From the IMG/VR virus record IMGVR_UViG_2636416131_000002: a stretch of DNA of 37,548 nucleotides, one strand, 5' to 3'. This DNA is from a virus (Duplodnaviria; Heunggongvirae; Uroviricota; Caudoviricetes). Of this stretch, positions 18,363 to 37,548 are shown in pieces (the stretch's first letter is position 1; every line of letters begins with the position of its first letter). The notes below the pieces were generated by a model. It did no database searches, had not been told where the DNA came from, and was given only the letters and a program-made list of their open reading frames with translations. A program made the translations under genes and the position numbers.

Positions 18363-18405
18363 CTTGGTATCTATTCGATGGATACTCACATACTACGGTA
18401 ACATC

Positions 18406-19543: not shown

Positions 19544-19843
19544 TGGTAAACCTTCCATGTGATACGATGGCGCGTAGTTTGCATTATCGTGTTTATTGTT
19601 TCAATCTGGTCTGACCTCTTTGTGTTTTGTTGATGATTTATGTCAAATATTAAGCCTGTTTTTAATGAATAGTGTTGATTGCGTAACAAAATTGAGCCTT
19701 GCTGGCATCCAGGAGGGATATGCAACCGACAGATGTATGTAAGGTCGATGTACTCAAACTTTCATACTTTTCCTCTTTTATGCAGTAAGATTTGAAGTAA
19801 TATTTTAACCGCTAGATGACGAGCAAACGCATGGAGCGACAAA

Positions 19844-20050
19844 ATGAATAAAGAACAATCTGCTGATGAACTCTCGTTGGATCTGATTCGTGTAAAAAAT
19901 ATGCTTAATAGCACCATTTCTATGAGTTACCCGGATGTTGTAATTGCATGTATAGAACATCAGGTGTCTCTGGAAGCATTCAGGGCAATTGAGGCAGCGT
20001 TGGTGAAGCACGATAAGAATTCGAAGGATTATTCCCTGGTGGTTGACTGA
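19844..20050 (+). CDS. Hypothetical small protein, 68 aa (YnfO-like position)
   Basis: ORF between ydfO and the cos region with a weak GGAG ribosome-binding site. No family recognised. Confidence 0.35.
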
Positions 20051-20366
20051 GCACCATAACTGCTAATCATTCAAACTATTTCACCTGTGACAGAGTCAAT
20101 ATCGCATTCTGTCACTGTCAGGCTAATACAGAGCTGCAATTCAACTACTGCAATGTCCTCGTAATTAGGTGAATTTACAATATCGTCCTGTTCGGATGCC
20201 GGCTGCATTGCTGAAGATGAGGCATTTATGGTTCGCATATTTTCCCCTCATGCTCGTCAGTCCTGTGCGTAGGAAGAAACAGGACACTCACACTAATTTG
20301 TGTGGGCATGCTGTGATGTCCTTCTGAATTATTCCTATGCCATTATGTAAAGCGCTGTATCAGATG

Positions 20367-20400
20367 CTCGTCACGGCTGTCAGGCTGTCAGGCTGTCGGG
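20367..20400. repeat. Tandem GGCTGTCA repeats (three copies), part of a wider scatter of CTGTCA motifs from about 20086
   Basis: TCACGGCTGTCAGGCTGTCAGGCTGTCGGG read directly; further CTGTCAC / CTGTCAG / GTGACAG motifs at 20086-20135. Candidate terminase small-subunit binding sites. Confidence 0.45.
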
Positions 20401-20425
20401 TCCTCCCGGTGGGGGCCCCTGCCAC

Positions 20426-20443
20426 GGGGCGGGAGCGTCGCGG
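20426..20443. other. Candidate cos cleavage site, GGGGCGGGAGCGTCGCGG
   Basis: GC-rich island in an AT-rich intergenic region about 180 nt upstream of the terminase small-subunit ATG. 13 of 17 positions match the lambda left end GGGCGGCGACCTCGCGG as I recall it. Confidence 0.45.
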
Positions 20444-20622
20444 AAAAAGGCTAGTTTTTGCATTTCCATGGCGGCGGCAGCATGTTTGGTAATTTATTGA
20501 TAATTAAAAGTTATTTCTCTTTTTACCTGTACAATATTTTTTTCTCCCTGTCATTAGATCAGTTTACAATTAATTGAAATATATAAATAAACATGATTTT
20601 CACCTGCCAGATGGAGTTGCTT

Positions 20623-21150
20623 ATGTCAAATGTGAGCGGGATCGGTGATGCTTATTACTGGAGTGTTTTTAAAATCGCTGAGGCCTTTGGGCTTCACCGG
20701 GACACAGTAAAAAAACGGCTTCTCGCGGCCAACACTCCTGTGGCTGCGACTGTCAGGGGGAACCCCGTTTACGCCCTGCAGCATGTCGGGCCAGCCCTGT
20801 TTAGTGTGAAGCATGAGGCAGCAGACTCTGTTCATGATCCATCCCGTATGGAGCCGAAAGAGAGAAAGGACTGGTACCAGTCTGAAAATGAAAGGATCAA
20901 GCTGGAAAAGGAGCAGCGAAAACTCATCCCCGTTGATGAAGTAGTCATCGTCTATTCGTCCATGAGAAAGGCTGTCGTCCAGGTTCTGGAGACAATTCCG
21001 GATGTTCTTGAACGCGATTGCGCCCTGACTCCTCAGGCCGTCGGCGTTGTACAGCAGGCAATTGATGACCTGCGATACACTCTTCAGGAAAAATCCTACG
21101 AGGCTTGTGCTGCTGAATTAATTCCTGATGAGGAAGGAGAGAGTCTCTAG
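20623..21150 (+). CDS. Terminase small subunit, about 175 aa
   Basis: Directly upstream of the large terminase and downstream of the cos-like region. Start taken at the ATG with a GGAG ribosome-binding site (ORF track starts at 20593). Confidence 0.6.
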   Translation: MSNVSGIGDAYYWSVFKIAEAFGLHRDTVKKRLLAANTPVAATVRGNPVYALQHVGPALFSVKHEAADSVHDPSRMEPKERKDWYQSENERIKLEKEQRKLIPVDEVVIVYSSMRKAVVQVLETIPDVLERDCALTPQAVGVVQQAIDDLRYTLQEKSYEACAAELIPDEEGESL

Positions 21151-21158
21151 GAGGAATA

Positions 21159-23258: not shown

Positions 23259-23467
23259 ACCAGAATGATATCGAAGCCATGATTCAGCGTTATACGGAAG
23301 CTGAAATGGCGGTGCTGGACGGAAAATCCGTCACTTTTAATGGTCAGCAGATGACCATGGAAAACTTATCTGAGATCCGGCAGGGACGGCAGGAGTGGGA
23401 GCGCCGCCTTGCGGCTCTGATTACACGACGACGGGGGCATCCCGGGTACCGGCTGGCGAGGTTCTGA
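23255..23467 (+). CDS. Head-tail joining protein (lambda gpW-like), 70 aa
   Basis: Small ORF between terminase and portal, the position of lambda W. Start overlaps the terminase stop (ATGA); stop overlaps the portal start. Confidence 0.6.
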   Translation: MNQNDIEAMIQRYTEAEMAVLDGKSVTFNGQQMTMENLSEIRQGRQEWERRLAALITRRRGHPGYRLARF

Positions 23468-24975
23468 TGGCAATTCTTGATGATGTGATTGGCGTTTTTT
23501 CACCAGGATGGAAAGCGGCAAGGCTGCGTTCCCGTGCGGTGATCCAGGCTTATGAGGCCGTAAAAACGACACGGACACACAAAGCCCGGCGGGAAAACCG
23601 AACTGCCGACCAGTTAAGCCAGTACGGGGCCGTGTCGTTACGTGAGCAGGCCCGTTACCTTGATAACAACCACGATCTGGTTATTGGTGTATTTGACAAG
23701 CTGGAAGAACGGGTGGTGGGGAAAAACGGGATTATTGTCGAGCCACATCCGGTATTACGCAATGGGGCCATTGCCCGTGATCTGGCAGCGGAGATACGCA
23801 CCCGATGGAGTGAATGGTCTGTCAGTCCGGAAGTCACCGGGCAGTTTACCCGTCCGATGCTGGAACGTCTGATGCTGCGTACCTGGCTGCGCGATGGTGA
23901 GGTGTTTGCCCAGATGGTTTCCGGGCGCATAAACAGCCTGACGCCTTCTGCCGGTGTTCATTTCTGGCTGGAGGCGCTCGAGCCGGACTTTATTCCCATG
24001 ACCAGTGATGAGAGCAACAGGCTGAATCAGGGCGTGTTTGTTGATGACTGGGGGCGTCCCGAAAAATATCTGGTGTATAAAAGCCGTCCCGTATCCGGGC
24101 GGCAGATGGAAACCAAAGAAGTGGATGCAGAGCGAATGCTGCATCTTAAATTTGTTCGCCGTCTGCACCAGATGCGCGGGACGTCTTTGTTGTCCGGTGT
24201 GCTGATCCGCCTCAGTGCCCTGAAAGAGTATGAAGATTCTGAGCTGACTGCAGCAAGGATCGCCGCTGCTCTGGGGATGTACATCCGGAAAGGCGACGGG
24301 CAGAGCTATGAACCGGATGGTAATGGCAGCAAGGAGAATGAACGCGAGCTTACCATTCAGCCAGGCATTATTTACGACGATCTGAAACCCGGCGAAGAAA
24401 TCGGAATGGTGAAGTCGGATCGTCCCAATCCTAACCTTGAAACTTTTCGTAATGGTCAGTTGCGTGCCGTGGCGGCGGGCAGTCGTCTGAGTTTTTCCAG
24501 TACGGCACGCAACTATAACGGCACTTACAGCGCCCAGCGTCAGGAGCTGGTTGAATCCACTGATGGCTACCTGATCCTGCAGGACTGGTTTATTGGTGCC
24601 GTCACCCGCCCGATGTATCGTGCCTGGCTGAAACAGGCTGTGGCATCCGGTGTTATCAGGCTACCCCGCGATCTTGATCGTTCTTCACTGTATACCGCGG
24701 TGTATTCCGGACCGGTGATGCCGTGGATTGACCCTGTTAAGGAGGCTGAGGCCTGGAAAATTCAGATTCGTGGTGGAGCGGCGACAGAATCAGACTGGGT
24801 ACGTGCAGGTGGTCGTAATCCGGATGATGTCAAACGTCGGCGCAAGGCCGAAATTGATGAAAACCGCAAGCTGGATCTGGTATTTGATACCGATCCGGCC
24901 AGTGATAAAGGAGGCAGCAGTGCCGCAACGAAACGACAGGAGCCGCAGCACACCGACGACCAGTCCGAAGAATAA
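23467..24975 (+). CDS. Portal protein (lambda gpB family), about 502 aa
   Basis: Size and position after terminase and W; start chosen at the ATG overlapping the W stop (ORF track starts upstream at 23395). Confidence 0.8.
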   Translation: MAILDDVIGVFSPGWKAARLRSRAVIQAYEAVKTTRTHKARRENRTADQLSQYGAVSLREQARYLDNNHDLVIGVFDKLEERVVGKNGIIVEPHPVLRNGAIARDLAAEIRTRWSEWSVSPEVTGQFTRPMLERLMLRTWLRDGEVFAQMVSGRINSLTPSAGVHFWLEALEPDFIPMTSDESNRLNQGVFVDDWGRPEKYLVYKSRPVSGRQMETKEVDAERMLHLKFVRRLHQMRGTSLLSGVLIRLSALKEYEDSELTAARIAAALGMYIRKGDGQSYEPDGNGSKENERELTIQPGIIYDDLKPGEEIGMVKSDRPNPNLETFRNGQLRAVAAGSRLSFSSTARNYNGTYSAQRQELVESTDGYLILQDWFIGAVTRPMYRAWLKQAVASGVIRLPRDLDRSSLYTAVYSGPVMPWIDPVKEAEAWKIQIRGGAATESDWVRAGGRNPDDVKRRRKAEIDENRKLDLVFDTDPASDKGGSSAATKRQEPQHTDDQSEE

Positions 24976-24988
24976 TTCCTGGTTCAGG

Positions 24989-26947
24989 ATGCAGGCAGGT
25001 CACCAGAGTGACGCGGATATTTATATTTATGACGAGATTGGTTTCTGGGGTGTTACAGCGAAGCAGTTTATCAGTGATCTGAATGCACTGGGCGATATCA
25101 CCCACATTAATCTCCATATTAATTCACCGGGTGGCGATGTCTTTGAAGGCATCGCCATTTTTAATGCACTGAAAACACATGGTGCGTCCATTACCGTTTA
25201 TGTCGACGGTGTGGCGGCGTCAATGGCGTCGGTCATTGCGATGGTGGGAAACCCGGTCATTATGCCGGAAAACTCCTTCATGATGATTCATAAACCATTT
25301 GGCTTTACGGGCGGTGATGCGGAGGACATGCGCACCTATGCCGACCTGCTCGATAAAGTTGAGGCGGTTCTGTTACCCGCTTATGCACAGAAAACCGGGA
25401 AAACCACCGATGAAATTGCTGCCATGCTGGCGGATGAGACCTGGATGTCCGGTGCCGAATGTCTGGCACAGGGATTTGCTGATCAGGTGACACCAGCCGT
25501 TAAGGCAATGGCATGTATTCAGTCAAAACGTACAGAGGAATTTAAAAAGATGCCGGAATCCATTCGAAACATGATTACTCCGCCACGCAACAGTGCTCCA
25601 CGCGTACAGGATGATGAACCTGCAGCCTCCCGGACGCCAGTGCAGGCAGCAGCACCCGTGGTGGATGAAAACAGTATCCGTGCGCAGGTACTGGCAGAGC
25701 AAAAAGCGCGTGTAAACGGTATTAATGATCTGTTTGCCATGTTTGGCGGGCGTTATCAGACGCTGCAGGCCCAGTGTCTTGCCGATCCTGAATGTTCGCT
25801 GGAGCAGGCCCGTGAAAAGCTGTTGAACGAGATGGGGCGCGAGTCCACGCCATCCAATAAAAATACCCCGGCTCATATTTATGCCGGTAACGGTAATTTT
25901 GTGGGGGACGGGATTCGCCAGGCGCTGATGGCGCGTGCCGGATTTGAAAAAACCGAACGTGATAATGTCTACAACGGGATGACCCTGCGTGAATATGCCC
26001 GTATGTCACTAACTGAACGGGGTATTGGGGTTTCCGGTTATAACCCGATGCAGATGGTCGGTGCGGCGTTCACACACAGTACGTCTGACTTCGGTAATAT
26101 TCTGCTGGATGTTGCGAACAAAGCCATTCTGCAGGGCTGGGAAGATGCCCCTGAAACCTATGAACAGTGGACGCGGAAAGGTCAGTTGTCTGATTTTAAA
26201 ATTGCCCATCGTGTGGGTATGGGGGGCTTCAGTGCTCTGCGTCAGGTGCGTGAAGGGGCGGAATATAAATACGTCACCACCGGAGATAAACAGGCCACTA
26301 TTGCACTGGCGACCTATGGCGAGCTGTTCAGTATCACCCGTCAGGCCATTATCAATGATGATCTGAATATGCTGACCGATGTCCCGATGAAACTGGGCCG
26401 TGCGGCGAAATCCACTATTGCCGATCTGGTTTATGCCATTCTGACGTCTAACCCGAAAATCTCCACAGATAATGTAAGTCTGTTCGATAAAGCGAAACAT
26501 GCAAACGTACTGGAGAGCGCTGCAATGGACGTGGCATCGCTGGATAAAGCCCGCCAGTTGATGCGCGTTCAGAAAGAGGGGGAGCGTCATCTGAATATTC
26601 GTCCTGCGTTCGTACTGGTACCGACGGCGATGGAGTCTGTTGCTAACCAGGTCATTCGCTCCTCAAGTGTCAAGGGGGCTGACATTAACGCCGGTATTAT
26701 TAACCCGGTGAAAGATTTTGCGACCGTTATTGCAGAGCCTCGTCTTGATGATAACAGCCAGACCACCTTCTACCTGGCTGCGTCAAAAGGCTCCGATACG
26801 ATTGAAGTGGCTTATCTCAACGGTGTGGATACGCCATATATTGATCAGATGGAGGGCTTCAGTGTGGATGGCGTGACAACGAAAGTGCGTATTGACGCCG
26901 GTGTCGCGCCAGTTGATCACCGCGGTCTGGTGAAATGTACGGCGTAA
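24989..26947 (+). CDS. Fused prohead protease (ClpP / S49-like) and major capsid protein, about 652 aa
   Basis: N-terminal ~200 aa look like a ClpP-family serine protease (INSPGGDVFEGIAIFNALKTHGASITVYVDGVAASMASVIAMVG). C-terminal ~300 aa look like a major capsid protein. One continuous frame with no stop. ORF track starts at 24728 inside the portal gene; 24989 is the first ATG after the portal stop. Confidence 0.75.
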   Translation: MQAGHQSDADIYIYDEIGFWGVTAKQFISDLNALGDITHINLHINSPGGDVFEGIAIFNALKTHGASITVYVDGVAASMASVIAMVGNPVIMPENSFMMIHKPFGFTGGDAEDMRTYADLLDKVEAVLLPAYAQKTGKTTDEIAAMLADETWMSGAECLAQGFADQVTPAVKAMACIQSKRTEEFKKMPESIRNMITPPRNSAPRVQDDEPAASRTPVQAAAPVVDENSIRAQVLAEQKARVNGINDLFAMFGGRYQTLQAQCLADPECSLEQAREKLLNEMGRESTPSNKNTPAHIYAGNGNFVGDGIRQALMARAGFEKTERDNVYNGMTLREYARMSLTERGIGVSGYNPMQMVGAAFTHSTSDFGNILLDVANKAILQGWEDAPETYEQWTRKGQLSDFKIAHRVGMGGFSALRQVREGAEYKYVTTGDKQATIALATYGELFSITRQAIINDDLNMLTDVPMKLGRAAKSTIADLVYAILTSNPKISTDNVSLFDKAKHANVLESAAMDVASLDKARQLMRVQKEGERHLNIRPAFVLVPTAMESVANQVIRSSSVKGADINAGIINPVKDFATVIAEPRLDDNSQTTFYLAASKGSDTIEVAYLNGVDTPYIDQMEGFSVDGVTTKVRIDAGVAPVDHRGLVKCTA

Positions 26948-26970
26948 ACGTCGCAGACAACAACTCTGAT

Positions 26971-26990
26971 GGCCCGTAAGGGCTTTTTTT
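26971..26990 (+). terminator. Short hairpin plus T7 run after the capsid gene
   Basis: GGCCC-GTAA-GGGC followed by TTTTTTT, then a second hairpin CAGCCCC-TGAA-CGGGGCTG at 27003-27021. Confidence 0.4.
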
Positions 26991-27033
26991 GTACCTGAAA
27001 TCAGCCCCTGAACGGGGCTGTGCGGAGACAGTT

Positions 27034-27636: not shown

Positions 27637-28215
27637 ATGAAGGGGCTTGAGAATGCCATCCGTAATCTGAACAGCCTTGATACCCGTATGGTGCCACAGG
27701 CCAGCGCATGGGCGATAAACCGTGTGGCACAGAAAGCGGTCTCGGTCGCCACCCGGCAGGTTGCCGGGAATACCGTTGCGGGAGATAACCAGGTGAAAGG
27801 GATCCCCCTGAAACTGGTACGTCAGCGTGTCCGGGTGTTTAAAGCCAGTCCGTCAGGAAAAATGACGGCCAGGATCCGCGTTAACCGGGGCAATCTGCCC
27901 GCTATTAAGCTGGGGACAGCCCGGGTCAGACTGGCCCGGCGTGGTGGAAAACTGCAGTACCGTGGCAGTGTGCTGAAGGTGGGTAAATATCTTTTCCGGG
28001 ATGCGTTTATTCAGCAACTGGCGAATGGTCGCTGGCATGTGATGCGGCGTATTGATGGCAAAAATCGTTACCCCATTGATGTGGTGAAAGTCCCGCTGTC
28101 CGGACAGCTGACACAGGCATTTGAAGATGCCCGCGACCGCATTATTGCTGCGGAAATGACGAAACAGCTGGGGTATGCACTGAAACAACAACTGAGGTTA
28201 TGGCTGACCCGATGA
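27637..28215 (+). CDS. Z: Tail completion protein Z (lambda gpZ-like), 192 aa
   Basis: Same length as lambda Z; conserved segments (MKGLE…LNSL…; NGRWHVM…GKNRYPIDVVK; LGYAL…QL); AAGAGG ribosome-binding site. Confidence 0.8.
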   Translation: MKGLENAIRNLNSLDTRMVPQASAWAINRVAQKAVSVATRQVAGNTVAGDNQVKGIPLKLVRQRVRVFKASPSGKMTARIRVNRGNLPAIKLGTARVRLARRGGKLQYRGSVLKVGKYLFRDAFIQQLANGRWHVMRRIDGKNRYPIDVVKVPLSGQLTQAFEDARDRIIAAEMTKQLGYALKQQLRLWLTR

Positions 28216-28613
28216 ACCGACATACACAAATCCGCCAGGCCGTACTGGCACGCCTTCGGGAACAGTGTGGAGACAGCGCCACGTTTTTTGACGGGCTTCC
28301 GGCATTTATTGATGCGCAGGAACTGCCTGCCGTGGCGGTGTGGCTGAGTGATGCTCAGTACACCGGAAAAATGACGGATGAAGATGACTGGCAGGCTGTT
28401 CTGCATATTGCTGTCTTCATCCGGGCACAGGCACCGGATTCAGAGCTGGATATGTGGATGGAGAGCACCATTTTCCCGGCCCTGAATGATATACCGGCAC
28501 TTTCCGGACTCATCGACACCCTGATCCCTCTCGGTTTTAACTATCAACGTGATAATGAGATGGCCACCTGGGCGATGGCGGAAATCACGTACCAGATCAC
28601 GTACACGAATTAA
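28212..28613 (+). CDS. U: Tail terminator protein U (lambda gpU-like), about 133 aa
   Basis: ATFFDG…PAVAVWL…YTG…LHI…PDSELD…ME…IPALS pattern matches lambda U as recalled; start overlaps the Z stop (ATGA). Confidence 0.8.
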   Translation: MNRHTQIRQAVLARLREQCGDSATFFDGLPAFIDAQELPAVAVWLSDAQYTGKMTDEDDWQAVLHIAVFIRAQAPDSELDMWMESTIFPALNDIPALSGLIDTLIPLGFNYQRDNEMATWAMAEITYQITYTN

Positions 28614-28624
28614 AGGAGGTGGCA

Positions 28625-29368
28625 ATGACCACACCAAATCCACTGGCAAAAACGAAAGGTGCGGGAACGACGTTCTGGATGTACACCGGCAAGGGCGATG
28701 CGTTTGCGAACCCTTTATCGGACACTGACTGGCTGCGTCTTGCGATGGTGAAGGATCTGCAACCTGGCGAAATGACCGCTGATGCAGAAGATGACACTTA
28801 TCTCGATGATGAAGATGCAGACTGGAAAACGACAACCCAGGGGCAGAAATCCGTCGGTGATACTTCGGCGACGCTGGCCTGGCGTCCGGGTGACAGCGGG
28901 CAGAAAAAACTGGTTCAGTTGTTCGACTCCGGTGAAGTCTGCGCGTTTCGTATCAAATATCCCAACGGCACTGTTGATGTTTTCCGTGGCTGGCTGAGCT
29001 CACTGGGTAAAACCATTGCCTCAAAAGACGTGATGACCCGCACAGTGAAAATCAGCGGTGTGGGGCGTCCGTATCTGGCAGAGGAAGGCACTGAAACAGT
29101 GAGCGTTACCGGGCTGACGGTGGCACCGGCATCTGCCAGTGTAAAAGTGGGAGCAACCACCACGCTGACCTTTACAGTAAAACCTGACGGAGCCAGTGAC
29201 AAAGCGATCAGTGTGCATTCGACAGATCCACAGACTGCCACGGTGACCCTGAACGGGCTTGTGGCCACGGTGAAAGGCGTGAAGCAGGGCAGTGTCAGCA
29301 TTGTGGGCATGACTTCTGACGGCGATTTTGTGGCAGTGGCTGCGGTGGCTGTCAGCGCCGCAGGTTAA
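28625..29368 (+). CDS. V: Major tail protein V (lambda gpV-like) with C-terminal Ig-like domain, 247 aa
   Basis: AAGGAGG 5 nt before the ATG; KGAGTT…W…Y, YLDDEDADW, FPNGTVDVFRGW motifs; C-terminal Big_2-like region. Confidence 0.9.
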   Translation: MTTPNPLAKTKGAGTTFWMYTGKGDAFANPLSDTDWLRLAMVKDLQPGEMTADAEDDTYLDDEDADWKTTTQGQKSVGDTSATLAWRPGDSGQKKLVQLFDSGEVCAFRIKYPNGTVDVFRGWLSSLGKTIASKDVMTRTVKISGVGRPYLAEEGTETVSVTGLTVAPASASVKVGATTTLTFTVKPDGASDKAISVHSTDPQTATVTLNGLVATVKGVKQGSVSIVGMTSDGDFVAVAAVAVSAAG

Positions 29369-29425: not shown

Positions 29426-29815
29426 ATGATGTTTCTGAAACAGGGCACGTTTAATTATGAAAAGCAGTCCGTGGTGCTCAGTGAGCTGTCCGGGCTGCAG
29501 AGAATTGAATATCTGGCGTTTGTTCAGCAGCGAACGGCAAAGTTTGATGCCGAAGAGGGAGAACTGCCGGAGGCTGAACGACAGATTGCTTTTCTGCGGA
29601 TGGGGATGGATATCAATGCCTGGCTGGTTTCCCGCTCACTGTGGAATGCGGAACAGTCTCAGGATGTTGAGACGCTTTGCGCATCCGTTATTACAACATG
29701 GTCGTATGATGCCCTGGGAGCGGGGGCGGAGATGGTTCTGTCGCTGAGCGGTATGGGAGTCATTGAGAATGCCGGGGATTTGGAGCATGAGGTGCTGACG
29801 CCGGAAAAGTCCTGA
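29426..29815 (+). CDS. G: Tail assembly chaperone G (lambda gpG-like)
   Basis: Follows V; LSELS.LQRIEYLAF motif. Two adjacent ATGs (29426, 29429) after a GGTGGAG ribosome-binding site. Confidence 0.8.
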   Translation: MMFLKQGTFNYEKQSVVLSELSGLQRIEYLAFVQQRTAKFDAEEGELPEAERQIAFLRMGMDINAWLVSRSLWNAEQSQDVETLCASVITTWSYDALGAGAEMVLSLSGMGVIENAGDLEHEVLTPEKS

Positions 29816-30153
29816 CGCGGGAAATGCAGTTTGTCATGCGGCTTGCCCGGGAGTTCCGGCGGGCAGACTGGCGGCGGATGCTGTCGGAAATGTCGGCCAC
29901 TGAGCTTGGTGAGTGGGGCGATTATTTCCGGATGCAGAGCTTCAGTGATGTGTGGATGGATGCGCAGTTTGCCTCGCTGAAGGCATTGATCGTGAGAATG
30001 GTGTCCGGTAGCAGTGATGCTGCGGTGGCTGATTTCAGCCTTTTACCGGAAGAGAACGGGATACCGGAGCGAACGGACGAAGAACTGATGCATCTTGGGG
30101 AAGGTATTTCCGGAGGTGTGCGTTATGGACCAGATAGCCAACCTGGTCATTGA
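29426..30153 (+). CDS. Predicted G-T fusion product via programmed -1 ribosomal frameshift near the end of G
   Basis: The downstream frame (stop at 30153) is open back to 29800 in the -1 frame relative to G and overlaps the last G codons (CCGGAAAAG). This is the conserved G/GT arrangement of lambda-like tail chaperones. Confidence 0.55.
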
Positions 30154-33100
30154 TTTGGGGATTGATGCGGCAGAGTTTAAAAATGAAATTCCCCGTATCA
30201 AAAACCTTCTGAATGGTGCAGCCAGCGATGCAGAACGGTCTTCTGCCCGTATGCAGCGTTTTATGGAGCGTCAGACTCAGGCCGCCCGGCAGACAATGCA
30301 GGCGGTTTCTTCGGCTGCAACAGCCGCATCCGTCCATGCGCAGACGGTGGAGAAGAGCGCACAGGCTCATGAACGCATGGCCCGCGAGGTGGAGCAAACC
30401 CGCCAGCGTATGGAGGCACTGAGCCAGAAAATGCGCGAGGAACAGGCGCAGGCCATGGCTCTGGCGGAGGCTCAGGATAAAGCGGCTGCCGCGTTTTATC
30501 GTCAGATTGACAGTGTGAAACAGGCCAGTGCGGGGCTGCAGGAATTACAGCGTATTCAGCAGCAGATCCGACAGGCCAGAAACAGTGGCGGGATTGGTCA
30601 GCAGGATTATCTGGCGCTGATTTCTGAGGTTACGGCGAAAACCCGTGTTCTTACGCAGGCTGAGGAAGAGGCTACCCGACAGAAAGTGGCGTTTATCCGT
30701 CAGCTTAAAGAGCAGGCAACCCGCCAGAATCTTTCTTCTTCTGAGTTGCTTCGTGCTAAGGCTGCCCAGCTGGGGGTAAGCAGTGCTGCAGAAGTGTATA
30801 TCCGCAAAATGGAGCAGGCAGGAAAAGCCACGCATTCGCTGGGTCTGAAAAGTGCAGCGGCCCGCCAGGAGATAGGCGTTCTGATAGGTGAACTGGCCCG
30901 CGGCAATTTAGGGGCGCTGAGGGGATCCGGGATAACGCTGGCTAACCGTGCCGGATGGATAGACACTCTGATGTCACCGAAAGGCATGATGCTTGGCGGG
31001 GTTATTGGCGGTATTGCCGCGTCCGTCTATGGTCTGGGTAAAGCCTGGTATGACGGTCAGAAGGAGGGGGAAGAATTTAACCGCCAGTTGTCGCTGACGG
31101 GGCATTATGCCGGAGTCACTGCCGGGCAGCTGTGGACGCTCAGTCGTGCTATTTCCGGGAATGGTATCACGCAACATGCTGCAGCCGGTGCGCTGGCTCA
31201 GGTGGTGGGGAGTGGTGCATTTCGTGGAAACGATATCGGTATGGTGGCGAGAGCTGCCGCACAGATGGAGCGATCGGTTGGCCAGTCGGTCAGCGATACC
31301 ATAAATCAGTTTAAGCGGCTGAAGGATGATCCTGTAAATGCCGCGAAGGCTCTGGACAATGAGCTGCATTTTCTTACTGCCACTCAGCTTGAGCAGATAC
31401 GTGTCCTTGGGGATCAGGGACGGTCCAGTGATGCTGCACGGATAGCCATGTCTGCACTGGCAGAGGAAACCGGTCGGCGTACTGCGGATATTGATAATAA
31501 CCTCAATGCGCTTGGCAGTACGCTGAAGTATCTGTCTGATTTGTGGAGTCGTTTCTGGGATGCGGCCATGAATATTGGTCGTGAAGACTCGCTGGATGAA
31601 CAGATTGCCGCTTTACAGGAGAAAGTGTCGCGGGCGAAAAGACTCCCCTGGACGGCATCATCTTCTCAGGTTGAATACGATCAGCAGCGTCTTAACGATC
31701 TTCAGGAGAAAAAACGCCAGAAGGATTTGCAGGATGCAAAAGAGCAGGCAGAGCGGAATTATCAGGAGCAACAGAAACGACGTAATGCTGAAAATGCTGC
31801 ACTGAACCGGATGAATGAAACGGAAGCAGCACGACATCAGCGTGAAATTGCGCGTATTAATTCCATGCAGTACGCCGATCAGGCTGTCAGGGATGCAGCG
31901 ATACAACGTGAAAATGAACGTTACGAGAAAGCCCTGGCATCCGGTAAGAAAAAAACACGCGAAACCCGTAATGATGAGGCCACCCGGTTATTGCTGCAGT
32001 ACAGTCAGCAACAGGCACAGGTGGAAGGACAGATTGCTGCTGCAAGACAGTCAGCAGGCATTGCCACTGAAAAGATGACAGAAGCGCATAAACAGCTTCT
32101 GGCTCTGCAGCAGCGCATCAGCGATCTGGACGGGAAAAAACTGACGGCAGATGAAAAGAGTGTGCTGGCCCGTAAAGATGAACTGATTCAGGCACTGACG
32201 CTGCTGGATGTAAAACAGCAGGAGCTTCGGAAACAGACGGCACTCAACGATCTGAAGAAAAAAACAATTCAGCTGACCAGTCAACTGGCTGAAGAAGAGC
32301 GCGCTCAGCGTCAGCAACATGACCTGGATATCGCCACGGTGGGTATGGGTGATCAGCAGCGGCAGCGATATCAGGTACAACTGAGTCTTCGCCAGAAATA
32401 CCAGCAACAGCTGGAGCAGTTGAGGCGGGATAGTGAGCAGAAAGGGACATATAACACGGATGACTACAGAAAGGCCGAGCAGGCGCTGACGGAGAGCCTG
32501 AACCGACAACTGAATGAGAATCGCCGTTACTGGCAACAGCTTGAAGTTGTGCAGGGTAACTGGAAAAACGGAGTCCTGCGTGCATTTCAGGATTTTACCG
32601 TGGATGCAGATAATACGGCAGGAACAGCAGAACAGGTGTTCTCGTCAGCCTTCAGCAACATGGGAAATGGCCTGGCAACTTTTGTCACTACCGGCAAACT
32701 CAATTTCAAATCCTTCACCTCTTCTGTGCTGTCAGATATGGCGAAAATCCTGGCGCAGGCAACCATGATGAAATCGATAAAAGGGATTGGCAGTGTACTG
32801 GGATTTGATCTCAGCAGCCTTTCCCTGAATGCCAATGGGGGGATTTATCAGTCTGCTGATTTGAGTCGTTACAGTGGCACGGTGGTTAACCGTCCGACGT
32901 TTTTTGCTTTTGCAAAAGGCGCGGGTGTGATGGGTGAAGCGGGACCTGAAGCCATTCTGCCTCTGCGTCGTGGTGCTGACGGTAAGCTGGGGGTTGTGGC
33001 GGATATTGGTGGTTCAGGTATGGCGATGTTTGCCCCGCAGTACAACATCGAGATCAATAACGATGGCACGAACGGGCAGATAGGTCCGGCTGCCCTGAAG

Positions 33101-33190
33101 GTGGTTTATGACCTTGGGAAAAAAGCGGCAGCGGACTTTATGCAACAGCAGGCCCGTGATGGTGGTCGGTTAAGTGGAGCATATCGGTAA
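30125..33190 (+). CDS. H: Tail tape-measure protein (lambda gpH family), about 1021 aa
   Basis: Long coiled-coil-rich ORF after G/T. C-terminal segment (…NNDGTNGQIGPAALK.VYD…DGG) matches lambda H as recalled; N-terminal part appears different. GGAGG ribosome-binding site. Confidence 0.9.
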   Translation: MDQIANLVIDLGIDAAEFKNEIPRIKNLLNGAASDAERSSARMQRFMERQTQAARQTMQAVSSAATAASVHAQTVEKSAQAHERMAREVEQTRQRMEALSQKMREEQAQAMALAEAQDKAAAAFYRQIDSVKQASAGLQELQRIQQQIRQARNSGGIGQQDYLALISEVTAKTRVLTQAEEEATRQKVAFIRQLKEQATRQNLSSSELLRAKAAQLGVSSAAEVYIRKMEQAGKATHSLGLKSAAARQEIGVLIGELARGNLGALRGSGITLANRAGWIDTLMSPKGMMLGGVIGGIAASVYGLGKAWYDGQKEGEEFNRQLSLTGHYAGVTAGQLWTLSRAISGNGITQHAAAGALAQVVGSGAFRGNDIGMVARAAAQMERSVGQSVSDTINQFKRLKDDPVNAAKALDNELHFLTATQLEQIRVLGDQGRSSDAARIAMSALAEETGRRTADIDNNLNALGSTLKYLSDLWSRFWDAAMNIGREDSLDEQIAALQEKVSRAKRLPWTASSSQVEYDQQRLNDLQEKKRQKDLQDAKEQAERNYQEQQKRRNAENAALNRMNETEAARHQREIARINSMQYADQAVRDAAIQRENERYEKALASGKKKTRETRNDEATRLLLQYSQQQAQVEGQIAAARQSAGIATEKMTEAHKQLLALQQRISDLDGKKLTADEKSVLARKDELIQALTLLDVKQQELRKQTALNDLKKKTIQLTSQLAEEERAQRQQHDLDIATVGMGDQQRQRYQVQLSLRQKYQQQLEQLRRDSEQKGTYNTDDYRKAEQALTESLNRQLNENRRYWQQLEVVQGNWKNGVLRAFQDFTVDADNTAGTAEQVFSSAFSNMGNGLATFVTTGKLNFKSFTSSVLSDMAKILAQATMMKSIKGIGSVLGFDLSSLSLNANGGIYQSADLSRYSGTVVNRPTFFAFAKGAGVMGEAGPEAILPLRRGADGKLGVVADIGGSGMAMFAPQYNIEINNDGTNGQIGPAALKVVYDLGKKAAADFMQQQARDGGRLSGAYR

Positions 33191-33519
33191 TGGAGACGTT
33201 TCACTGGAAAGTGCGCCCGGATATGAATGTGGTATCAGAGCCGAAAGTGGTGACAGTGAAGCTGGGCGATGGTTATGAACAGCGTCGTGCGGCGGGACTG
33301 AATAACCAGTTGTCGACTTACAGCGTGACGATACGTGTTCGTAAATGTGAACACCCATCTTTAAAAGCCTTTCTGGAACGGCACGGTGGCGTCCGCGCAT
33401 TTCAGTGGACGCCACCTTATGACTGGAAGCCGATCAGGGTGGTTTGTCGTAAATGGTCGGCAAGCGTAGGGGCGCTGTGGGTAACCATAACGGCAGATTT
33501 TGAACAGGTCGTGGCATAG
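33190..33519 (+). CDS. M: Minor tail protein M (lambda gpM-like), 109 aa
   Basis: Same length as lambda M; start overlaps the H stop (TAATG). Confidence 0.85.
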   Translation: METFHWKVRPDMNVVSEPKVVTVKLGDGYEQRRAAGLNNQLSTYSVTIRVRKCEHPSLKAFLERHGGVRAFQWTPPYDWKPIRVVCRKWSASVGALWVTITADFEQVVA

Positions 33520-33528
33520 GAGGCTCTG

Positions 33529-34227
33529 ATGCAGGATATTCCACAGGAAACACATCATGAGACGACACGCCTCACTCAGTCAGCCCAGGTGGTGCTCTGG
33601 GAAATCGATCTGACAGAGGTCGGTGGTGAACGTTATTTTTTCTGTAATGAGCAGAACGAAAAAGGTGAGCCGGTCACCTGGCAGGGGTGGCAGTATCAGC
33701 CGTATCCCATTCAGGGGACGGGATTTGAACTGAACGGTAAGGGCAGTGCTGCCCGTCCGACACTGACGGTCTCTAACCTGCACGGCATGGTCACCGGGAT
33801 GGCGGAAGACCTGCAGAGTCTGGTCGGCGGAACGGTGGTCAGGCGTAAGGTTTACGCCCGTTTTCTGGATGCGGTGAACTTCGTCAACGGAAACAGCGAA
33901 GCCGATCCGGAGCAGGAGGTGATCAGCCGCTGGCGCATCGAGCAGTGCAGCGAACTGAGCGCGGTCAGTGTCTCTTTTGTACTGTCCACACCGACTGAAA
34001 CGGATGGCTCTGTTTTTCCGGGGCGTATCATGCTGGCCAACACCTGCACCTGGACCTATCGCGGCGATGAGTGCGGTTATAGCGGTCCGGCGGTCGCGGA
34101 TGAATATGACCAGCCGACGTCCGATATCACGAAGGATAAATGCAGCAAATGCCTGAGCGGCTGTAAGTTTCGCAATAACGTCGGCAACTTTGGCGGCTTC
34201 CTTTCCATTAACAAACTTTCGCAGTAA
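33529..34227 (+). CDS. L: Minor tail protein L (lambda gpL-like), 232 aa, with C-terminal cysteine cluster
   Basis: Same length as lambda L; AGGAGG ribosome-binding site; C-terminal cysteines (CTWTYRGDECGY…CSKCLSGC). Confidence 0.9.
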   Translation: MQDIPQETHHETTRLTQSAQVVLWEIDLTEVGGERYFFCNEQNEKGEPVTWQGWQYQPYPIQGTGFELNGKGSAARPTLTVSNLHGMVTGMAEDLQSLVGGTVVRRKVYARFLDAVNFVNGNSEADPEQEVISRWRIEQCSELSAVSVSFVLSTPTETDGSVFPGRIMLANTCTWTYRGDECGYSGPAVADEYDQPTSDITKDKCSKCLSGCKFRNNVGNFGGFLSINKLSQ

Positions 34228-34231
34228 TCCC

Positions 34232-34975
34232 ATGACAGAGACAGAATCAGCGATTCTGGCGCACGCCCGGCGATGTGCGCCAGCGGAGTCGTGCGGCTTC
34301 GTGGTGAGAACACCGGAGGGGGAAAGATATTTTCCCTGCGTGAATATCTCTGGTGAGCCGGAGGCGTATTTCCGGATGTCGCCGGAGGACTGGCTGAGTG
34401 CAGAAATGCAGGGAGAGATTGTGGCGCTGGTCCACAGCCACCCCGGTGGTCTGCCCTGGCTGAGTGAGGCCGACCGGCGGCTGCAGGTGCAGAGTGATTT
34501 GCCGTGGTGGCTGGTCTGCCGGGGGGCGATTCATAAATTCCGCTGTGTGCCGCATCTCACCGGGCGGCGCTTTGAGCACGGGGTGACGGACTGTTACACG
34601 CTGTTCCGGGACGCTTACCATCTGGCGGGAATTGAGATGCCGGATTTTCATCGCGGGGATGACTGGTGGCGTCACGGCCAGAATCTCTATCTGGATAATA
34701 TGGAGGCAACGGGGTTGTATCAGGTGCCGTTGTCAGCGGCCCAGCCGGGCGATGTGCTGCTGTGCTGTTTTGGTTCATCGGTGCCGAATCATGCCGCCAT
34801 TTACTGTGGCGACGGCGAGCTGCTGCACCATATTCCTGAACAACTGAGTAAACGAGAGAGGTACACCGACAAATGGCAGCGACGCACACACTCCCTCTGG
34901 CGTCACCGGGCATGGCACGCATCTGCCTTTACGGGGATTTGCAACGATTTGGCCGCCGCATCGATCTTCGTGTGA
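34232..34975 (+). CDS. K: Tail tip assembly protein K (lambda gpK-like): JAMM/MPN motif plus NlpC/P60-like C-terminal region
   Basis: HSHPGGLPWLSEAD fits the JAMM HxHx7Sx2D motif. Start at 34232 gives 247 aa; an internal ATG at 34376 would give 199 aa, the length I recall for lambda K. Confidence 0.8.
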   Translation: MTETESAILAHARRCAPAESCGFVVRTPEGERYFPCVNISGEPEAYFRMSPEDWLSAEMQGEIVALVHSHPGGLPWLSEADRRLQVQSDLPWWLVCRGAIHKFRCVPHLTGRRFEHGVTDCYTLFRDAYHLAGIEMPDFHRGDDWWRHGQNLYLDNMEATGLYQVPLSAAQPGDVLLCCFGSSVPNHAAIYCGDGELLHHIPEQLSKRERYTDKWQRRTHSLWRHRAWHASAFTGICNDLAAASIFV

Positions 34976-35544
34976 AAACGGGGGCTGAAGCTATCCGGGC
35001 GCTGGCCACACAGCTCCCGGCGTTTCGTCAGAAACTGAGCGACGGCTGGTATCAGGTACGGATTGCCGGGCGGGATGTCAGCACGTCCGGATTAACGGCG
35101 CAGTTACATGAGACTCTGCCTGATGGCGCTGTGATTCATATTGTTCCCAGAGTCGCCGGGGCCAAGTCAGGTGGTGTATTCCAGATTGTCCTGGGAGCTG
35201 CCGCCATTGCCGGATCATTCTTTACTGCCGGAGCCACCCTTGCAGCATGGGGGGCAGCCATTGGGGCCGGTGGTATGACCGGCATCCTGTTTTCTCTCGG
35301 TGCCAGTATGGTGCTCGGTGGTGTGGCGCAGATGCTGGCACCGAAAGCCAGAACTCCCCGTACACAGACAACGGATAACGGCAAACAGAACACCTATTTT
35401 TCCTCACTGGATAACATGGTTGCTCAGGGCAATGTTCTGCCTGTTCTGTACGGTGAAATGCGTGTGGGGTCGCGGGTGGTTTCTCAGGAGATCAGCACGG
35501 CAGACGAAGGGGACGGTGGTCAGGTTGTGGTGATTGGTCGCTGA
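34873..35544 (+). CDS. I: Tail tip assembly protein I (lambda gpI-like), 223 aa
   Basis: 223 aa with a glycine/alanine-rich hydrophobic core, overlapping the 3' end of K in another frame. Confidence 0.8.
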   Translation: MAATHTLPLASPGMARICLYGDLQRFGRRIDLRVKTGAEAIRALATQLPAFRQKLSDGWYQVRIAGRDVSTSGLTAQLHETLPDGAVIHIVPRVAGAKSGGVFQIVLGAAAIAGSFFTAGATLAAWGAAIGAGGMTGILFSLGASMVLGGVAQMLAPKARTPRTQTTDNGKQNTYFSSLDNMVAQGNVLPVLYGEMRVGSRVVSQEISTADEGDGGQVVVIGR

Positions 35545-35604
35545 TGCAAAATGTTTTATGTGAAACCGTCTCCGGGCGGTTTTGTCGTTTATGGAGCATG
35601 ACGA

Positions 35605-37548
35605 ATGGGTAAAGGCAGCAGTAAGGGGCATACCCCGCGCGAAGCGAAGGATAACCTGAAATCCACGCAGTTGCTGAGTGTGATCGATGCCATCAGCGAA
35701 GGGCCGGTTGAAGGTCCGGTGGATGGATTAAAAAGCGTGCTGCTGAACAGTACGCCAGTGCTGGACAGTGAGGGGAATACCAATATCTCCGGCGTCACGG
35801 TGGTGTTCCGGGCCGGTGAGCAGGAGCAGACACCGCCGGAGGGATTTGAATCCTCCGGCTCCGAGACGGTGCTGGGTACGGAAGTGAAATACGACACGCC
35901 GATCACCCGGACCATCACGTCGGCAAACATTGACCGACTGCGTTTTACCTTCGGCGTGCAGGCACTGGTGGAAACCACCTCAAAGGGGGACAGGAATCCG
36001 TCGGAAGTCCGCCTGCTGGTTCAGATCCAGCGTAACGGTGGCTGGGTGACGGAAAAAGACATCACCATTAAGGGCAAAACCACCTCGCAGTATCTGGCCT
36101 CGGTGGTGGTGGGTAACCTGCCGCCGCGCCCGTTCAATATCCGGATGCGCAGGATGACGCCGGACAGCACCACAGACCAGCTGCAGAACAAAACGCTCTG
36201 GTCGTCATACACCGAAATCATCGATGTGAAACAGGGCTACCCGAACACGGCACTGGTCGGCGTGCAGGTGGATTCGGAGCAGTTCGGCAGCCAGCAGGTG
36301 AGCCGTAATTATCATCTTCGCGGGCGCATTCTGCAGGTGCCGTCGAACTATAACCCGCAGACGCGGCAATACAGCGGTATCTGGGACGGAACGTTAAAAC
36401 CGGCATACAGCAACAACATGGCCTGGTGTCTGTGGGATATGCTGACCCACCCGCGCTACGGCATGGGGAAACGTCTTGGTGCGGCGGATGTGGATAAATG
36501 GGCGCTGTATGTCATCGGCCAGTACTGCGACCAGTCGGTGCCGGACGGTTTTGGCGGTACGGAGCCGCGCATCACCTGTAATGCGTACCTGACCACACAG
36601 CGTAAGGCGTGGGATGTGCTCAGTGATTTCTGCTCGGCGATGCGCTGTATGCCGGTATGGAACGGGCAGACGCTGACGTTCGTGCAGGACCGGCCGTCGG
36701 ATAAGGTGTGGATCTATAACCGCAGTAATGTGGTGATGCCGGATGATGGCGCGCCGTTCCGCTACAGCTTCAGCGCCCTGAAGGACCGCCATAATGCCGT
36801 TGAGGTGAACTGGATTGACCCGAATAACGGCTGGGAGACGGCGACAGAGCTTGTGGAGGACACGCAGGCCATTGCCCGTTACGGTCGTAATGTCACGAAG
36901 ATGGATGCCTTTGGCTGTACCAGCCGGGGGCAGGCACATCGCGCCGGGCTGTGGCTGATTAAAACAGAACTGCTGGAAACGCAGACCGTGGACTTCAGCG
37001 TGGGCGCAGAAGGGCTTCGCCATGTGCCGGGCGATGTCATTGAAATCTGTGATGATGACTATGCCGGTATCAGCATCGGCGGGCGCGTGCTGGCGGTAAA
37101 CAGCCAGACCCGGACGCTGACGCTCGACCGTGAAATCACGCTGCCATCTTCCGGCACCACGCTGATAAGCCTGGTTGACGGGCAGGGGAGTCCGGTCAGC
37201 GTGGAGGTTCAGTCCGTCACCGACGGCGTGAAGGTGAAAGTGAGCCGTGTTCCTGACGGCGTTGCTGAATACAGCGTATGGGGGCTGAAGCTGCCGACGT
37301 TGCGCCAGCGCCTGTTCCGCTGCGTGAGTATCCGTGAGAACGACGACGGCACGTATGCCATCACCGCCGTGCAGCATGTACCGGAAAAAGAGGCCATCGT
37401 GGATAACGGGGCGCACTTTGACGGCGACCAGAGCGGCACGGTAAATGGTGTCACGCCGCCAGCGGTGCAGCACCTGACCGCAGAAGTCACCGCAGACAGC
37501 GGGGAATACCAGGTGCTGGCGCGCTGGGACACGCCGAAGGTGGTGAAG
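35605..37548 (+). CDS. J: Tail tip / host-specificity protein J (lambda gpJ-like), N-terminal 648 codons; continues beyond window
   Basis: Frame from the ATG at 35605 is open to the window end; translation begins MGKGSSKGHTPREAKDNLKSTQLLSVIDAISEGPVEGPVDGLKSVLLNSTPVL, which matches lambda J as I recall it. Missing from the ORF track because there is no stop in the window. Confidence 0.9.
   Translation, partial: MGKGSSKGHTPREAKDNLKSTQLLSVIDAISEGPVEGPVDGLKSVLLNSTPVLDSEGNTNISGVTVVFRAGEQEQTPPEGFESSGSETVLGTEVKYDTPITRTITSANIDRLRFTFGVQALVETTSKGDRNPSEVRLLVQIQRNGGWVTEKDITIKGKTTSQYLASVVVGNLPPRPFNIRMRRMTPDSTTDQLQNKTLWSSYTEIIDVKQGYPNTALVGVQVDSEQFGSQQVSRNYHLRGRILQVPSNYNPQTRQYSGIWDGTLKPAYSNNMAWCLWDMLTHPRYGMGKRLGAADVDKWALYVIGQYCDQSVPDGFGGTEPRITCNAYLTTQRKAWDVLSDFCSAMRCMPVWNGQTLTFVQDRPSDKVWIYNRSNVVMPDDGAPFRYSFSALKDRHNAVEVNWIDPNNGWETATELVEDTQAIARYGRNVTKMDAFGCTSRGQAHRAGLWLIKTELLETQTVDFSVGAEGLRHVPGDVIEICDDDYAGISIGGRVLAVNSQTRTLTLDREITLPSSGTTLISLVDGQGSPVSVEVQSVTDGVKVKVSRVPDGVAEYSVWGLKLPTLRQRLFRCVSIRENDDGTYAITAVQHVPEKEAIVDNGAHFDGDQSGTVNGVTPPAVQHLTAEVTADSGEYQVLARWDTPKVVK

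What the first reader, a model, noticed from the sequence alone, without database searches (positions are those of the whole stretch)
30125..37548. Mosaic tail: extended tape measure with a lambda-like C-terminus, followed by lambda-like M, L, K, I and J
The tape measure is about 1021 aa versus 853 in lambda as I recall it, implying a longer tail, and only its C-terminal part looks lambda-like. M, L, I and the start of J match lambda in length and sequence as far as I can recall. J runs off the window and is invisible in the ORF track, while several long antisense ORFs (for example 36394..37473) occupy its place there.
Basis: partly seen in the sequence, partly recalled or inferred. Interest (0 to 1): 0.4.

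Follow-up and report, generated by a model that had tools for sequence, protein, structure and literature searches.

The report
Common Qin/mEp460-type lambdoid phage tail
This is the ordinary tail-gene cluster of a very common E. coli prophage type (mEp460/cdtI/Tritos, an intact "Qin"), whose tail shaft genes are only distant relatives of phage lambda's while its tail-tip genes are nearly identical to lambda's; it is already sequenced and annotated many times over.

Summary
They are H (30125-33190, 1021 aa), M, L, K, I and the first 648 codons of J, which is cut by the end of the window. The window is a complete 37,548-bp draft contig, so it cannot be extended.

The tail is mosaic relative to lambda, but not in the way proposed.
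- Z, U, V, G, T, H and M are 28-56% identical to lambda in protein. L, K, I and J(1-648) are 93-99.6% identical.
- The DNA junction lies inside L, around codon 20 (about 33,586-33,590), not inside H.
- M is not lambda-like (56% aa, about 58% nt).
- H is not an extended lambda H. It is a full-length orthologue of the roughly 1020-1045-aa tape measures of Gifsy-1 (65%) and phi80 (42%). Its extra ~170 aa lie near the N-terminus.
- The only lambda-like part of H is a 50-60-nt patch encoding INNDGTNGQIGPAALK.

The same 7.4-kb module occurs at 96-97% nucleotide identity in mEp460, cdtI, Ayreon and Tritos. The H gene is present in 1,826 of 5,426 complete E. coli genomes.

Published electron microscopy of phages with this H does not show the predicted ~25 nm longer tail: Tritos 163.5 nm, against 156.8 nm for a phage with an 853-aa H.

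The antisense ORFs inside J are artefacts. Verdict: already known, low interest.

The parts
27637..28215 (+). Z-like tail completion gene (192 aa)
   Evidence: 53% aa identity to lambda Z, 79% to Gifsy-1 and 98% to mEp460_4F5. PF06763 Minor_tail_Z in the source annotation.
28200..28613 (+). U-like tail terminator gene (relatives annotate 133 aa)
   Evidence: 55% to lambda U, 99% to Tritos. PF06141.
28619..29368 (+). V-like major tail tube protein with a C-terminal Big_2 domain (247-249 aa)
   Evidence: Pfam Phage_TTP_12 and Big_2. 55% to lambda V, 98% to Tritos and mEp460_4F5.
29429..29815 (+). G-like tape-measure chaperone (128 aa)
   Evidence: Pfam Phage_TAC_2. 39% to lambda G, 95% to Tritos.
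29803..29809 (+). Candidate -1 slippery heptamer G GAA AAG for the G-T fusion
   Evidence: The T frame is open only from 29791 and G stops at 29815. The same heptamer sits at the same position in Gifsy-1 and phi80, where lambda has G GGA AAG. Frameshifting itself is inferred.
29791..30153 (+). T reading frame, the -1 frame extension of G
   Evidence: Pfam Phage_tail_T. 38% to lambda T, 100% to Tritos.
30125..33190 (+). H tape measure protein, 1021 aa, of the Gifsy/phi80/mEp460 long type
   Evidence: Pfam TMP_2 228-426, TMP_4 616-693 and Tape_meas_lam_C 811-885. 28% to lambda H, 65% to Gifsy-1, 42% to phi80 and 98-99% to Tritos and mEp460_4F5. Present in 1,826 of 5,426 complete E. coli genomes.
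30293..30808 (+). N-proximal segment of H (about residues 57-228) that lambda H lacks
   Evidence: Domain offsets and the BLASTP gap. Shared with Gifsy-1/2, phi80, LLS and mEp043/213. Not an internal duplication. Rich in A/Q/E/R and free of proline.
33052..33112 (+). Short lambda-like patch in the H C-terminus (INNDGTNGQIGPAALK)
   Evidence: 45/48 nt identical to lambda, with about 55% flanks. 17/17 aa match lambda and 12/17 match Gifsy-1, while both flanks are Gifsy-like.
33190..33519 (+). M distal tail protein (109 aa), non-lambda allele
   Evidence: Pfam Phage_min_tail. 56% to lambda M, 70% to Gifsy-1, 100% to Tritos and mEp460_4F5.
33529..34227 (+). L tail tip hub protein (232 aa); codons 1 to about 20 are non-lambda, the rest lambda-like
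   Evidence: Pfam Phage_tail_L. 93% to lambda L.
33586..33592 (.). Mosaic junction with lambda-type sequence
   Evidence: Identity to lambda and ev207 rises here from about 60% to 96% or more.
34232..34975 (+). K (247 aa): JAB/MPN plus NlpC/P60 tail assembly protein
   Evidence: Pfam Prok-JAB 4-98 and NLPC_P60 111-224. 95.5% to lambda K over 199 aa. Phages 21, 434, HK630 and ev207 also have 247-aa ORFs.
34873..35544 (+). I (223 aa), overlapping the end of K as in lambda
   Evidence: Pfam Lambda_tail_I. 222/223 identical to lambda I.
35605..37548 (+). J central tail fibre, N-terminal 648 codons, cut by the contig end
   Evidence: 635/648 identical to lambda J. 65 of 79 nt differences fall at third codon positions. 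Pfam FNIII-A_GpJ, Phage-tail_3 and Ig_J. The window is the whole contig.
36394..37473 (-). Antisense ORF (359 aa): not a gene
   Evidence: Against lambda, 44 nt differences give 39 aa changes and an internal stop. Not annotated in RefSeq relatives. Called as a gene only in the source draft, where J is truncated.

Best explanation
The region is the distal half of a standard lambda-type siphovirus tail operon (Z-U-V-G/GT-H-M-L-K-I-J). It belongs to an intact Qin/mEp460/cdtI/Tritos-type lambdoid prophage of E. coli.

How it works is inferred by orthology with lambda.
- J, I, L and K build the tip initiator.
- H joins it, held by the G and G-T chaperones. G-T is made by a -1 frameshift at G GAA AAG.
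- M caps the tip, and V polymerises around H until U terminates the tube.

In evolutionary terms the operon is a two-part mosaic relative to lambda.
- Z through M, plus the first ~20 codons of L, come from the Gifsy/phi80-like shaft lineage. That lineage normally has a tape measure of about 1020-1045 aa.
- L from about codon 20 through at least J codon 648 is lambda-type sequence.
- A 50-60-nt lambda-like conversion patch sits in the C-terminal segment of H. It lies immediately N-terminal to and overlaps the start of the helix that, in lambda, rests on the gpI tripod.
For: - **Gene content and order.** Shown.
- **Identity to lambda per gene.** Z 53, U 55, V 55, G 39, T 38, H 28 and M 56, against L 93, K 95.5, I 99.6 and J 98.
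- **Junction.** There is a sharp DNA junction at about 33,590.
- **H orthologues.** H is 65% identical to Gifsy-1 H over 1014 aa and 42% to phi80 gp16. The extra N-proximal segment is shared with them.
- **Known relatives.** The whole 7,454 nt is 97.1% identical, at 100% coverage, to mEp460_4F5. It is 96-97.6% identical to mEp460, Ayreon, cdtI, Tritos and PhiR47_1.
- **Frequency.** H is in 1,826 of 5,426 complete E. coli genomes. The 25-kb late region is covered at 80% or more in 748 genomes, within Qin-locus prophages.
- **Slip site.** It is conserved in Gifsy-1 and phi80.
- **H patch.** It matches lambda 17/17 and Gifsy-1 12/17.
- **Lambda structure.** gpH 818-842 forms a three-helix bundle on the gpI 135-223 tripod. 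gpM E-loops contact the gpL/gpJ ring and the gpM beta-sandwich contacts gpV (PMC10721106). This fits M travelling with V and H.
Against: - Nothing contradicts the identification.
- The assembly mechanism is inferred from lambda orthology and was not tested here.
- Whether this particular prophage is functional is unknown, because the contig ends inside J.
- The direction of exchange between the lambda and mEp460 lineages cannot be determined.
- The idea that the first ~20 codons of L co-travel with M for structural reasons is my inference only.
Confidence: 0.93

Rival explanations
1. One reading: H is a lambda H extended by about 170 aa, and a recombination joint inside H gives it a lambda C-terminus, followed by lambda M, L, K, I and J.
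For: - There is a lambda-identical 17-aa / 48-nt block near the H C-terminus.
- The lengths of M, L and I equal those of lambda.
Against: - After the block, H returns to Gifsy-like sequence for its last 28 aa.
- M is 56% aa and about 58% nt identical to lambda.
- High identity begins only at about 33,590, inside L.
- H is 28% identical to lambda overall but 65% to Gifsy-1 across its full length.
- The extra segment is not a duplication and is ancestral to a whole clade.
Confidence: 0.04
2. The H C-terminal lambda-like block reflects purifying selection on a contact surface with the lambda-type gpI/gpL/gpJ tip, not a recombination patch.
For: - In lambda the C-terminal helix of gpH (818-842) sits on the gpI tripod, and I here is 99.6% lambda.
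- The block partly overlaps that helix.
Against: - Synonymous sites in the block are also conserved, at 45/48 nt, although the surrounding genes are saturated.
- Gifsy-1 has a different sequence in the block (12/17), yet its tip proteins are also lambda-related.
- The best-conserved residues, INNDGTNGQIG, lie just upstream of the part resolved in the structure.
Confidence: 0.3
3. The longer tape measure makes a proportionally longer tail, about +25 nm or six more V rings than lambda.
For: - The established ruler principle for lambda H comes from Katsura and Hendrix's deletion and duplication experiments, cited from my own knowledge.
- H is 168 aa longer.
- Tritos's tail is somewhat longer than Perceval's.
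Against: - Measured in the same study, Tritos (1021-aa H) is 163.5 +/- 2.4 nm and Perceval (853-aa H) is 156.8 +/- 5.3 nm. The difference is +7 nm, not +25 nm.
- Ayreon (1021-aa H) was reported at about 120 nm.
- These are low-precision negative-stain values.
Confidence: 0.35

Closest known systems
Phages mEp460 / mEp460_4F5 / cdtI / Ayreon / Tritos / PhiR47_1, and intact Qin-locus prophages of E. coli
   Same: - The same tail module occurs throughout: 96-97.6% nt identity over 30095-37548, with 100% coverage in mEp460_4F5.
- H is identical in length at 1021 aa.
- M and T are 100% identical and H 98-99% identical.
- The head and lysis genes upstream are also the same.
   Different: - There are small allelic patches. 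Tritos I is only 80% identical and 215 aa, whereas this window's I is lambda-identical.
- The early region (window 1-12,600) matches other lambdoids best, such as PhiR42_1.
- The J C-terminus of this copy is unknown.
Bacteriophage lambda tail genes H-M-L-K-I-J
   Same: - Gene order, gene overlaps (K/I by 103 nt) and Pfam families are the same.
- L, K, I and J(1-648) are 93-99.6% identical in protein and about 96% in DNA.
   Different: - H is 1021 aa against 853 aa and 28% identical.
- M is 56% identical.
- Z, U, V, G and T are 38-55% identical.
- The slip site is G GAA AAG rather than G GGA AAG.
- The apparent difference in K length (247 against 199 aa) comes from a single missing G in the lambda reference record, not from biology.
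Gifsy-1 (Salmonella) and phi80 tails
   Same: - They carry the same long tape-measure type. Gifsy-1 H is 1031 aa and 65% identical; phi80 gp16 is 1045 aa and 42% identical.
- They share the N-proximal segment and the same G GAA AAG slip site.
   Different: - Gifsy-1 is uniformly diverged across shaft and tip (57-85%).
- phi80's tip proteins are only 29-39% identical.
- Neither shows the shaft/tip discontinuity seen against lambda.

Membership tests
Lambda-type siphovirus tail operon (Z-U-V-G/T-H-M-L-K-I-J) | Collinear gene order, with each gene hitting the corresponding family | tested here: met
   Pfam hits: Phage_TTP_12, Phage_TAC_2, Phage_tail_T, TMP_2 + Tape_meas_lam_C, Phage_min_tail, Phage_tail_L, Prok-JAB + NLPC_P60, Lambda_tail_I and FNIII-A_GpJ/Phage-tail_3/Ig_J. 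Z and U families appear.
Lambda-type siphovirus tail operon (Z-U-V-G/T-H-M-L-K-I-J) | G and T joined by a programmed -1 frameshift just before the G stop | tested here: inconclusive
   T lies in the -1 frame and is open from 29791. A conserved G GAA AAG heptamer sits at 29803-29809, positionally equivalent to lambda's G GGA AAG. No protein evidence is available.
Lambda-type siphovirus tail operon (Z-U-V-G/T-H-M-L-K-I-J) | Complete J with a receptor-binding C-terminus | not testable with these tools
   The contig ends at J codon 648 and the window is the whole contig CBWC010000039.1. In relatives, J residues after about 980 are only 40-49% identical to lambda.
Phage lambda proper (Lambdavirus) tail | Near-identity of all tail genes to lambda | tested here: not met
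   H is 28%, M 56% and Z/U/V/G/T 38-55% identical. Only L, K, I and J exceed 93%.
mEp460/cdtI/Tritos (intact Qin-type) tail module | Nucleotide identity above 95% over the whole H-J stretch, with the same 1021-aa H | tested here: met
Tape measure proteins of the lambda H superfamily | TMP_2 N-terminal domain, Tape_meas_lam_C domain, and position between the G/T chaperones and the distal tail protein | tested here: met
   PDB sequence match to lambda gpH (8iyk_H, E = 6e-48) and to the gpH C-terminal peptide 9e7m.
Tape measure proteins of the lambda H superfamily | Tail length proportional to protein length | tested here: inconclusive
   Literature values only: Tritos 163.5 nm, Perceval 156.8 nm and Ayreon about 120 nm.

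The most novel reading that the evidence does not exclude
In the mEp460/Tritos lineage the tape-measure rule may not be proportional. The N-proximal ~170-residue, Ala/Gln/Glu/Arg-rich, proline-free segment that lambda H lacks (also present in Gifsy and phi80 tape measures) may not lie extended in the tube. A 20% longer H would then give only about a 4% longer tail, and the segment would serve another role, for example in the trans-envelope channel formed by gpH*.
Probability: 0.12. Interest if true: 0.45.

Novelty: already known. Interest (0 to 1): 0.08.

Why it matters
It matters little. Mosaicism between the shaft and tip modules of lambdoid tails is textbook. This exact module is deposited in many phage records and in a third of complete E. 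coli genomes.

Three practical points follow.
1. Draft contigs that break inside J lead gene callers to annotate spurious antisense ORFs.
2. The junction inside L shows which parts of the tip travel with M and the tube, which bears on engineering chimeric lambda tails.
3. The commonly quoted 199-aa length of lambda K appears to come from a single-base omission in the 1982 reference sequence.

Tried and rejected
- **ev207-type phages sharing this M allele.** I first read the megablast hits that start at query 2958 as meaning ev207-type phages join this M allele at the H patch. Direct alignment showed ev207 is lambda-identical through H-M-L. The 'place' was just the 48-nt island joined to the block starting at 33,590. 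Rejected.
- **Internal duplication or tandem repeat as the source of the extra H length.** The self-alignment score was 68, against a shuffle mean of 64.7 +/- 7.7. TRF found nothing. Rejected.
- **Antisense ORF 36394-37473 as a gene.** Rejected on its substitution pattern and a stop codon in lambda.
- **Extending the window.** An exact-protein look-up showed the window is the entire contig.
- **TEM data for phage cdtI.** The PNAS 2007 paper is not held. The phi458 paper gives no tail length. A guessed accession for Perceval failed, and the record was then found by search.
- **Searches not used.** I did not run the large protein-homology searches or structure prediction. Identification was already unambiguous, and a single-chain model of a tape measure would not settle the tail-length question.


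Full report
**What is there.** The + strand from 27.6 kb to the window end carries a complete-looking lambda-type tail operon.
- The genes are Z (27637-28215), U (28200-28613), V (28619-29368), G (29429-29815), the T frame (29791-30153), H (30125-33190), M (33190-33519), L (33529-34227), K (34232-34975) and I (34873-35544).
- An open frame then runs from ATG 35605 to the last base of the window, 648 codons.
- Every product hits the expected Pfam family above its curated cut-off.
- The H start at 30125 follows a GGAGGTG Shine-Dalgarno sequence and is the start annotated in all relatives. The 1021-aa length is therefore right, and lambda H is 853 aa.
- J is absent from the ORF list only because that tool omits ORFs that run off an end.
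- An exact-protein look-up showed the window is the whole of contig CBWC010000039.1 (37,548 bp) of assembly GCA_000689315.1. J is cut by a draft-assembly break, and the window cannot be extended.

**Comparison with lambda.** I fetched lambda (NC_001416) and compared it gene by gene.
- Protein identities are Z 53%, U 55%, V 55%, G 39%, T 38%, H 28% and M 56%. After that come L 93%, K 95.5%, I 99.6% and J(1-648) 98%.
- At the DNA level the only blastn match to lambda downstream of V starts at 33052.
- A sliding identity profile shows about 46-66% identity up to about 33,590 and 91-99% from there to the end of the window.
- The printed alignment puts the switch at about 33,586-33,592, around codon 20 of L. 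The same switch is seen against the lambda-like phage ev207.

**The tape measure.** H aligns with lambda H collinearly over residues 2-56 and 289-1021 at 25-33% identity.
- Pfam domain positions show that almost all the extra length lies between residues ~57 and ~228. TMP_2 is at 228-426 here and 54-256 in lambda. Tape_meas_lam_C is at 811-885 here and 627-701 in lambda.
- This segment is not an internal duplication or tandem repeat.
- It is shared with the tape measures of Gifsy-1 (68% in this segment), Gifsy-2, phi80, LLS, mEp043 and mEp213.
- Over its full length H is 65% identical to Gifsy-1 H (1031 aa) and 42% to phi80 gp16 (1045 aa).
- H is therefore an ordinary member of a long (about 1020-1045 aa) tape-measure lineage, not an extended lambda H.

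**The lambda-like C-terminus of H.** It reduces to a short patch.
- The patch is about 33052-33112, with 45/48 nt identical to lambda. It encodes INNDGTNGQIGPAALK.
- That block is 17/17 identical to lambda but only 12/17 to Gifsy-1.
- The residues on both sides, GMAMFAPQYNIEI upstream and LGKKAAADFMQQQARDGG downstream, are Gifsy-like.
- I read this as a short conversion tract. Selection for contact with the lambda-type tip is a possible alternative. In lambda, gpH 818-842 forms a three-helix bundle resting on the gpI tripod (PMC10721106).

**How it works (inferred by orthology).** In lambda the steps are as follows.
- J, I, L and K form the tip initiator.
- H joins it with the G and G-T chaperones.
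- A hexameric M ring links the L/J ring (through its E-loops) to the V tube (through its beta-sandwich).
- V polymerises around H, and U terminates the tube (PMC10721106; PMC12617516).

The T frame here is open only from 29791, and G stops at 29815. Within this 25-nt interval lies G GAA AAG (29803-29809). It is conserved at the same position in Gifsy-1 and phi80, where lambda has G GGA AAG. This is the probable -1 slip site. M travels with V and H, which fits its contact with the tube. That the first ~20 codons of L travel with M is an observation, and a structural reason for it is only my inference.

**Is it known?** Yes.
- The 7,454 nt from 30095 to 37548 are 97.1% identical at 100% coverage to mEp460_4F5. 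They are 95.4-97.6% identical to vB_EcoS-569R4, Ayreon, mEp460, PhiR47_1, Tritos, cdtI and phi458.
- The H gene is present at 80% coverage or more in 1,826 of 5,426 complete E. coli genomes.
- The 25-kb late region is covered at 80% or more in 748 genomes. There it forms the late half of prophages at the Qin (ydfJ) locus, with the familiar Qin genes upstream and J-lom-stf-tfaQ-pinQ downstream.

**Tail length.**
- For lambda, tail length scales with H length at about 0.15 nm per residue (Katsura and Hendrix, from my own knowledge). That predicts about +25 nm here.
- One study measured both phage types. Tritos has a 1021-aa H and measured 163.5 +/- 2.4 nm. Perceval has a lambda-type 853-aa H and measured 156.8 +/- 5.3 nm (PMC9928086).
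- Ayreon also has a 1021-aa H and was described with tails of about 120 nm (PMC5764929).
- These negative-stain values are imprecise, but they do not show the proportional increase. I leave this as a small unexplained point and as the only mildly novel reading.

**Antisense ORFs.**
- Of the 79 nucleotide differences from lambda in J(1-648), 65 are at third codon positions of the J frame and cause 13 amino-acid changes.
- In the frame of the 359-aa antisense ORF (36394-37473), 44 differences cause 39 amino-acid changes, and the lambda version contains a stop.
- RefSeq relatives annotate nothing there.
- The source draft's gene caller did call this ORF and another antisense ORF, evidently because J was truncated. 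They are artefacts.

**The unseen part of J.** In relatives, J stays 93-97% lambda-like to residue ~800. The receptor-binding end after ~980 is only 40-49% identical to lambda.

**Side finding on K.**
- K here is 247 aa with a complete JAB/MPN domain plus NlpC/P60. Lambda K is annotated as 199 aa.
- The difference is one base. The lambda reference reads GGAGGC-TATTTCC where the window reads GGAGGCGTATTTCC. Phages 21, HK630, Perceval, Ayreon, Tritos and mEp460_4F5, and two modern lambda re-sequencings (PV340536, LC730321), read the same as the window. Phages 434 and ev207 differ slightly in sequence at this site but also keep an intact 247-aa K frame.
- The deleted version is absent from IMG/VR, and the intact one is in at least 120 contigs.
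- The 199-aa lambda K is therefore most likely an error or strain mutation in the 1982 reference.

**Verdict.** The junction and the nature of H need correcting. The feature is already known and ordinary.

Noticed in passing
window 34232-34975 (K), site 34352-34374; lambda NC_001416 about 14253-14274: Lambda's reference K (199 aa) lacks the N-terminal 48 residues, including the JAB Glu motif, because the reference lacks one G. That G is present in the window, in phages 21, HK630, Perceval, Ayreon, Tritos and mEp460_4F5, and in two modern lambda re-sequencings (PV340536, LC730321); phages 434 and ev207, whose sequence differs slightly at this site, also have intact 247-aa K ORFs. IMG/VR holds 0 contigs with the deleted 22-mer and at least 120 with the intact one. 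The true K is probably 247 aa.
   Followed up: yes
window 1-37548: The window is an entire draft contig (CBWC010000039.1 of GCA_000689315.1, 37,548 bp) that ends inside J. The source annotation calls two antisense ORFs (113 aa and 359 aa) in place of J, and calls K as 199 aa from an internal Met.
   Followed up: yes
window 29791-29815: The candidate G-T -1 frameshift heptamer G GAA AAG is conserved in Gifsy-1 and phi80 at the position of lambda's G GGA AAG. The P-site re-pairing would need a G-U at the middle position.
   Followed up: partly
window 33052-33112: A 50-60-nt lambda-identical patch inside an otherwise Gifsy-like H C-terminus. It may be a micro-conversion tract or a conserved linker.
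   Followed up: partly
window 30125-33190, with literature on Tritos, Perceval and Ayreon: Published tail lengths for phages with this 1021-aa H are 163.5 nm and about 120 nm. Neither is proportionally longer than the 156.8 nm of a phage with an 853-aa H.
   Followed up: partly
window 12600-27000: Upstream of the tail lie Qin-type late genes (ydfU, Q antiterminator, cspF/cspB, essD, rrrQ, rzpQ, cspI, gnsB). They are followed by terminase, portal and a ClpP-protease/major-capsid fusion ORF (24728-26947). The window is thus an undegraded counterpart of the defective K-12 Qin prophage.
   Followed up: partly
window 1-12600: The early region (exonuclease VIII, cII-like, O-like replication genes, a transposase) matches a different set of lambdoids best (PhiR42_1, 98.8% over 85%) than the late region does. 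This is a further level of mosaicism.
   Followed up: no
window 34873-35544 (I) versus Tritos L006:7779-8426: Among otherwise near-identical relatives, I varies by allele. The window and mEp460_4F5 have the lambda allele (99.6-100%), while Tritos has an 80%-identical 215-aa allele of the same length as Gifsy-1's I.
   Followed up: no
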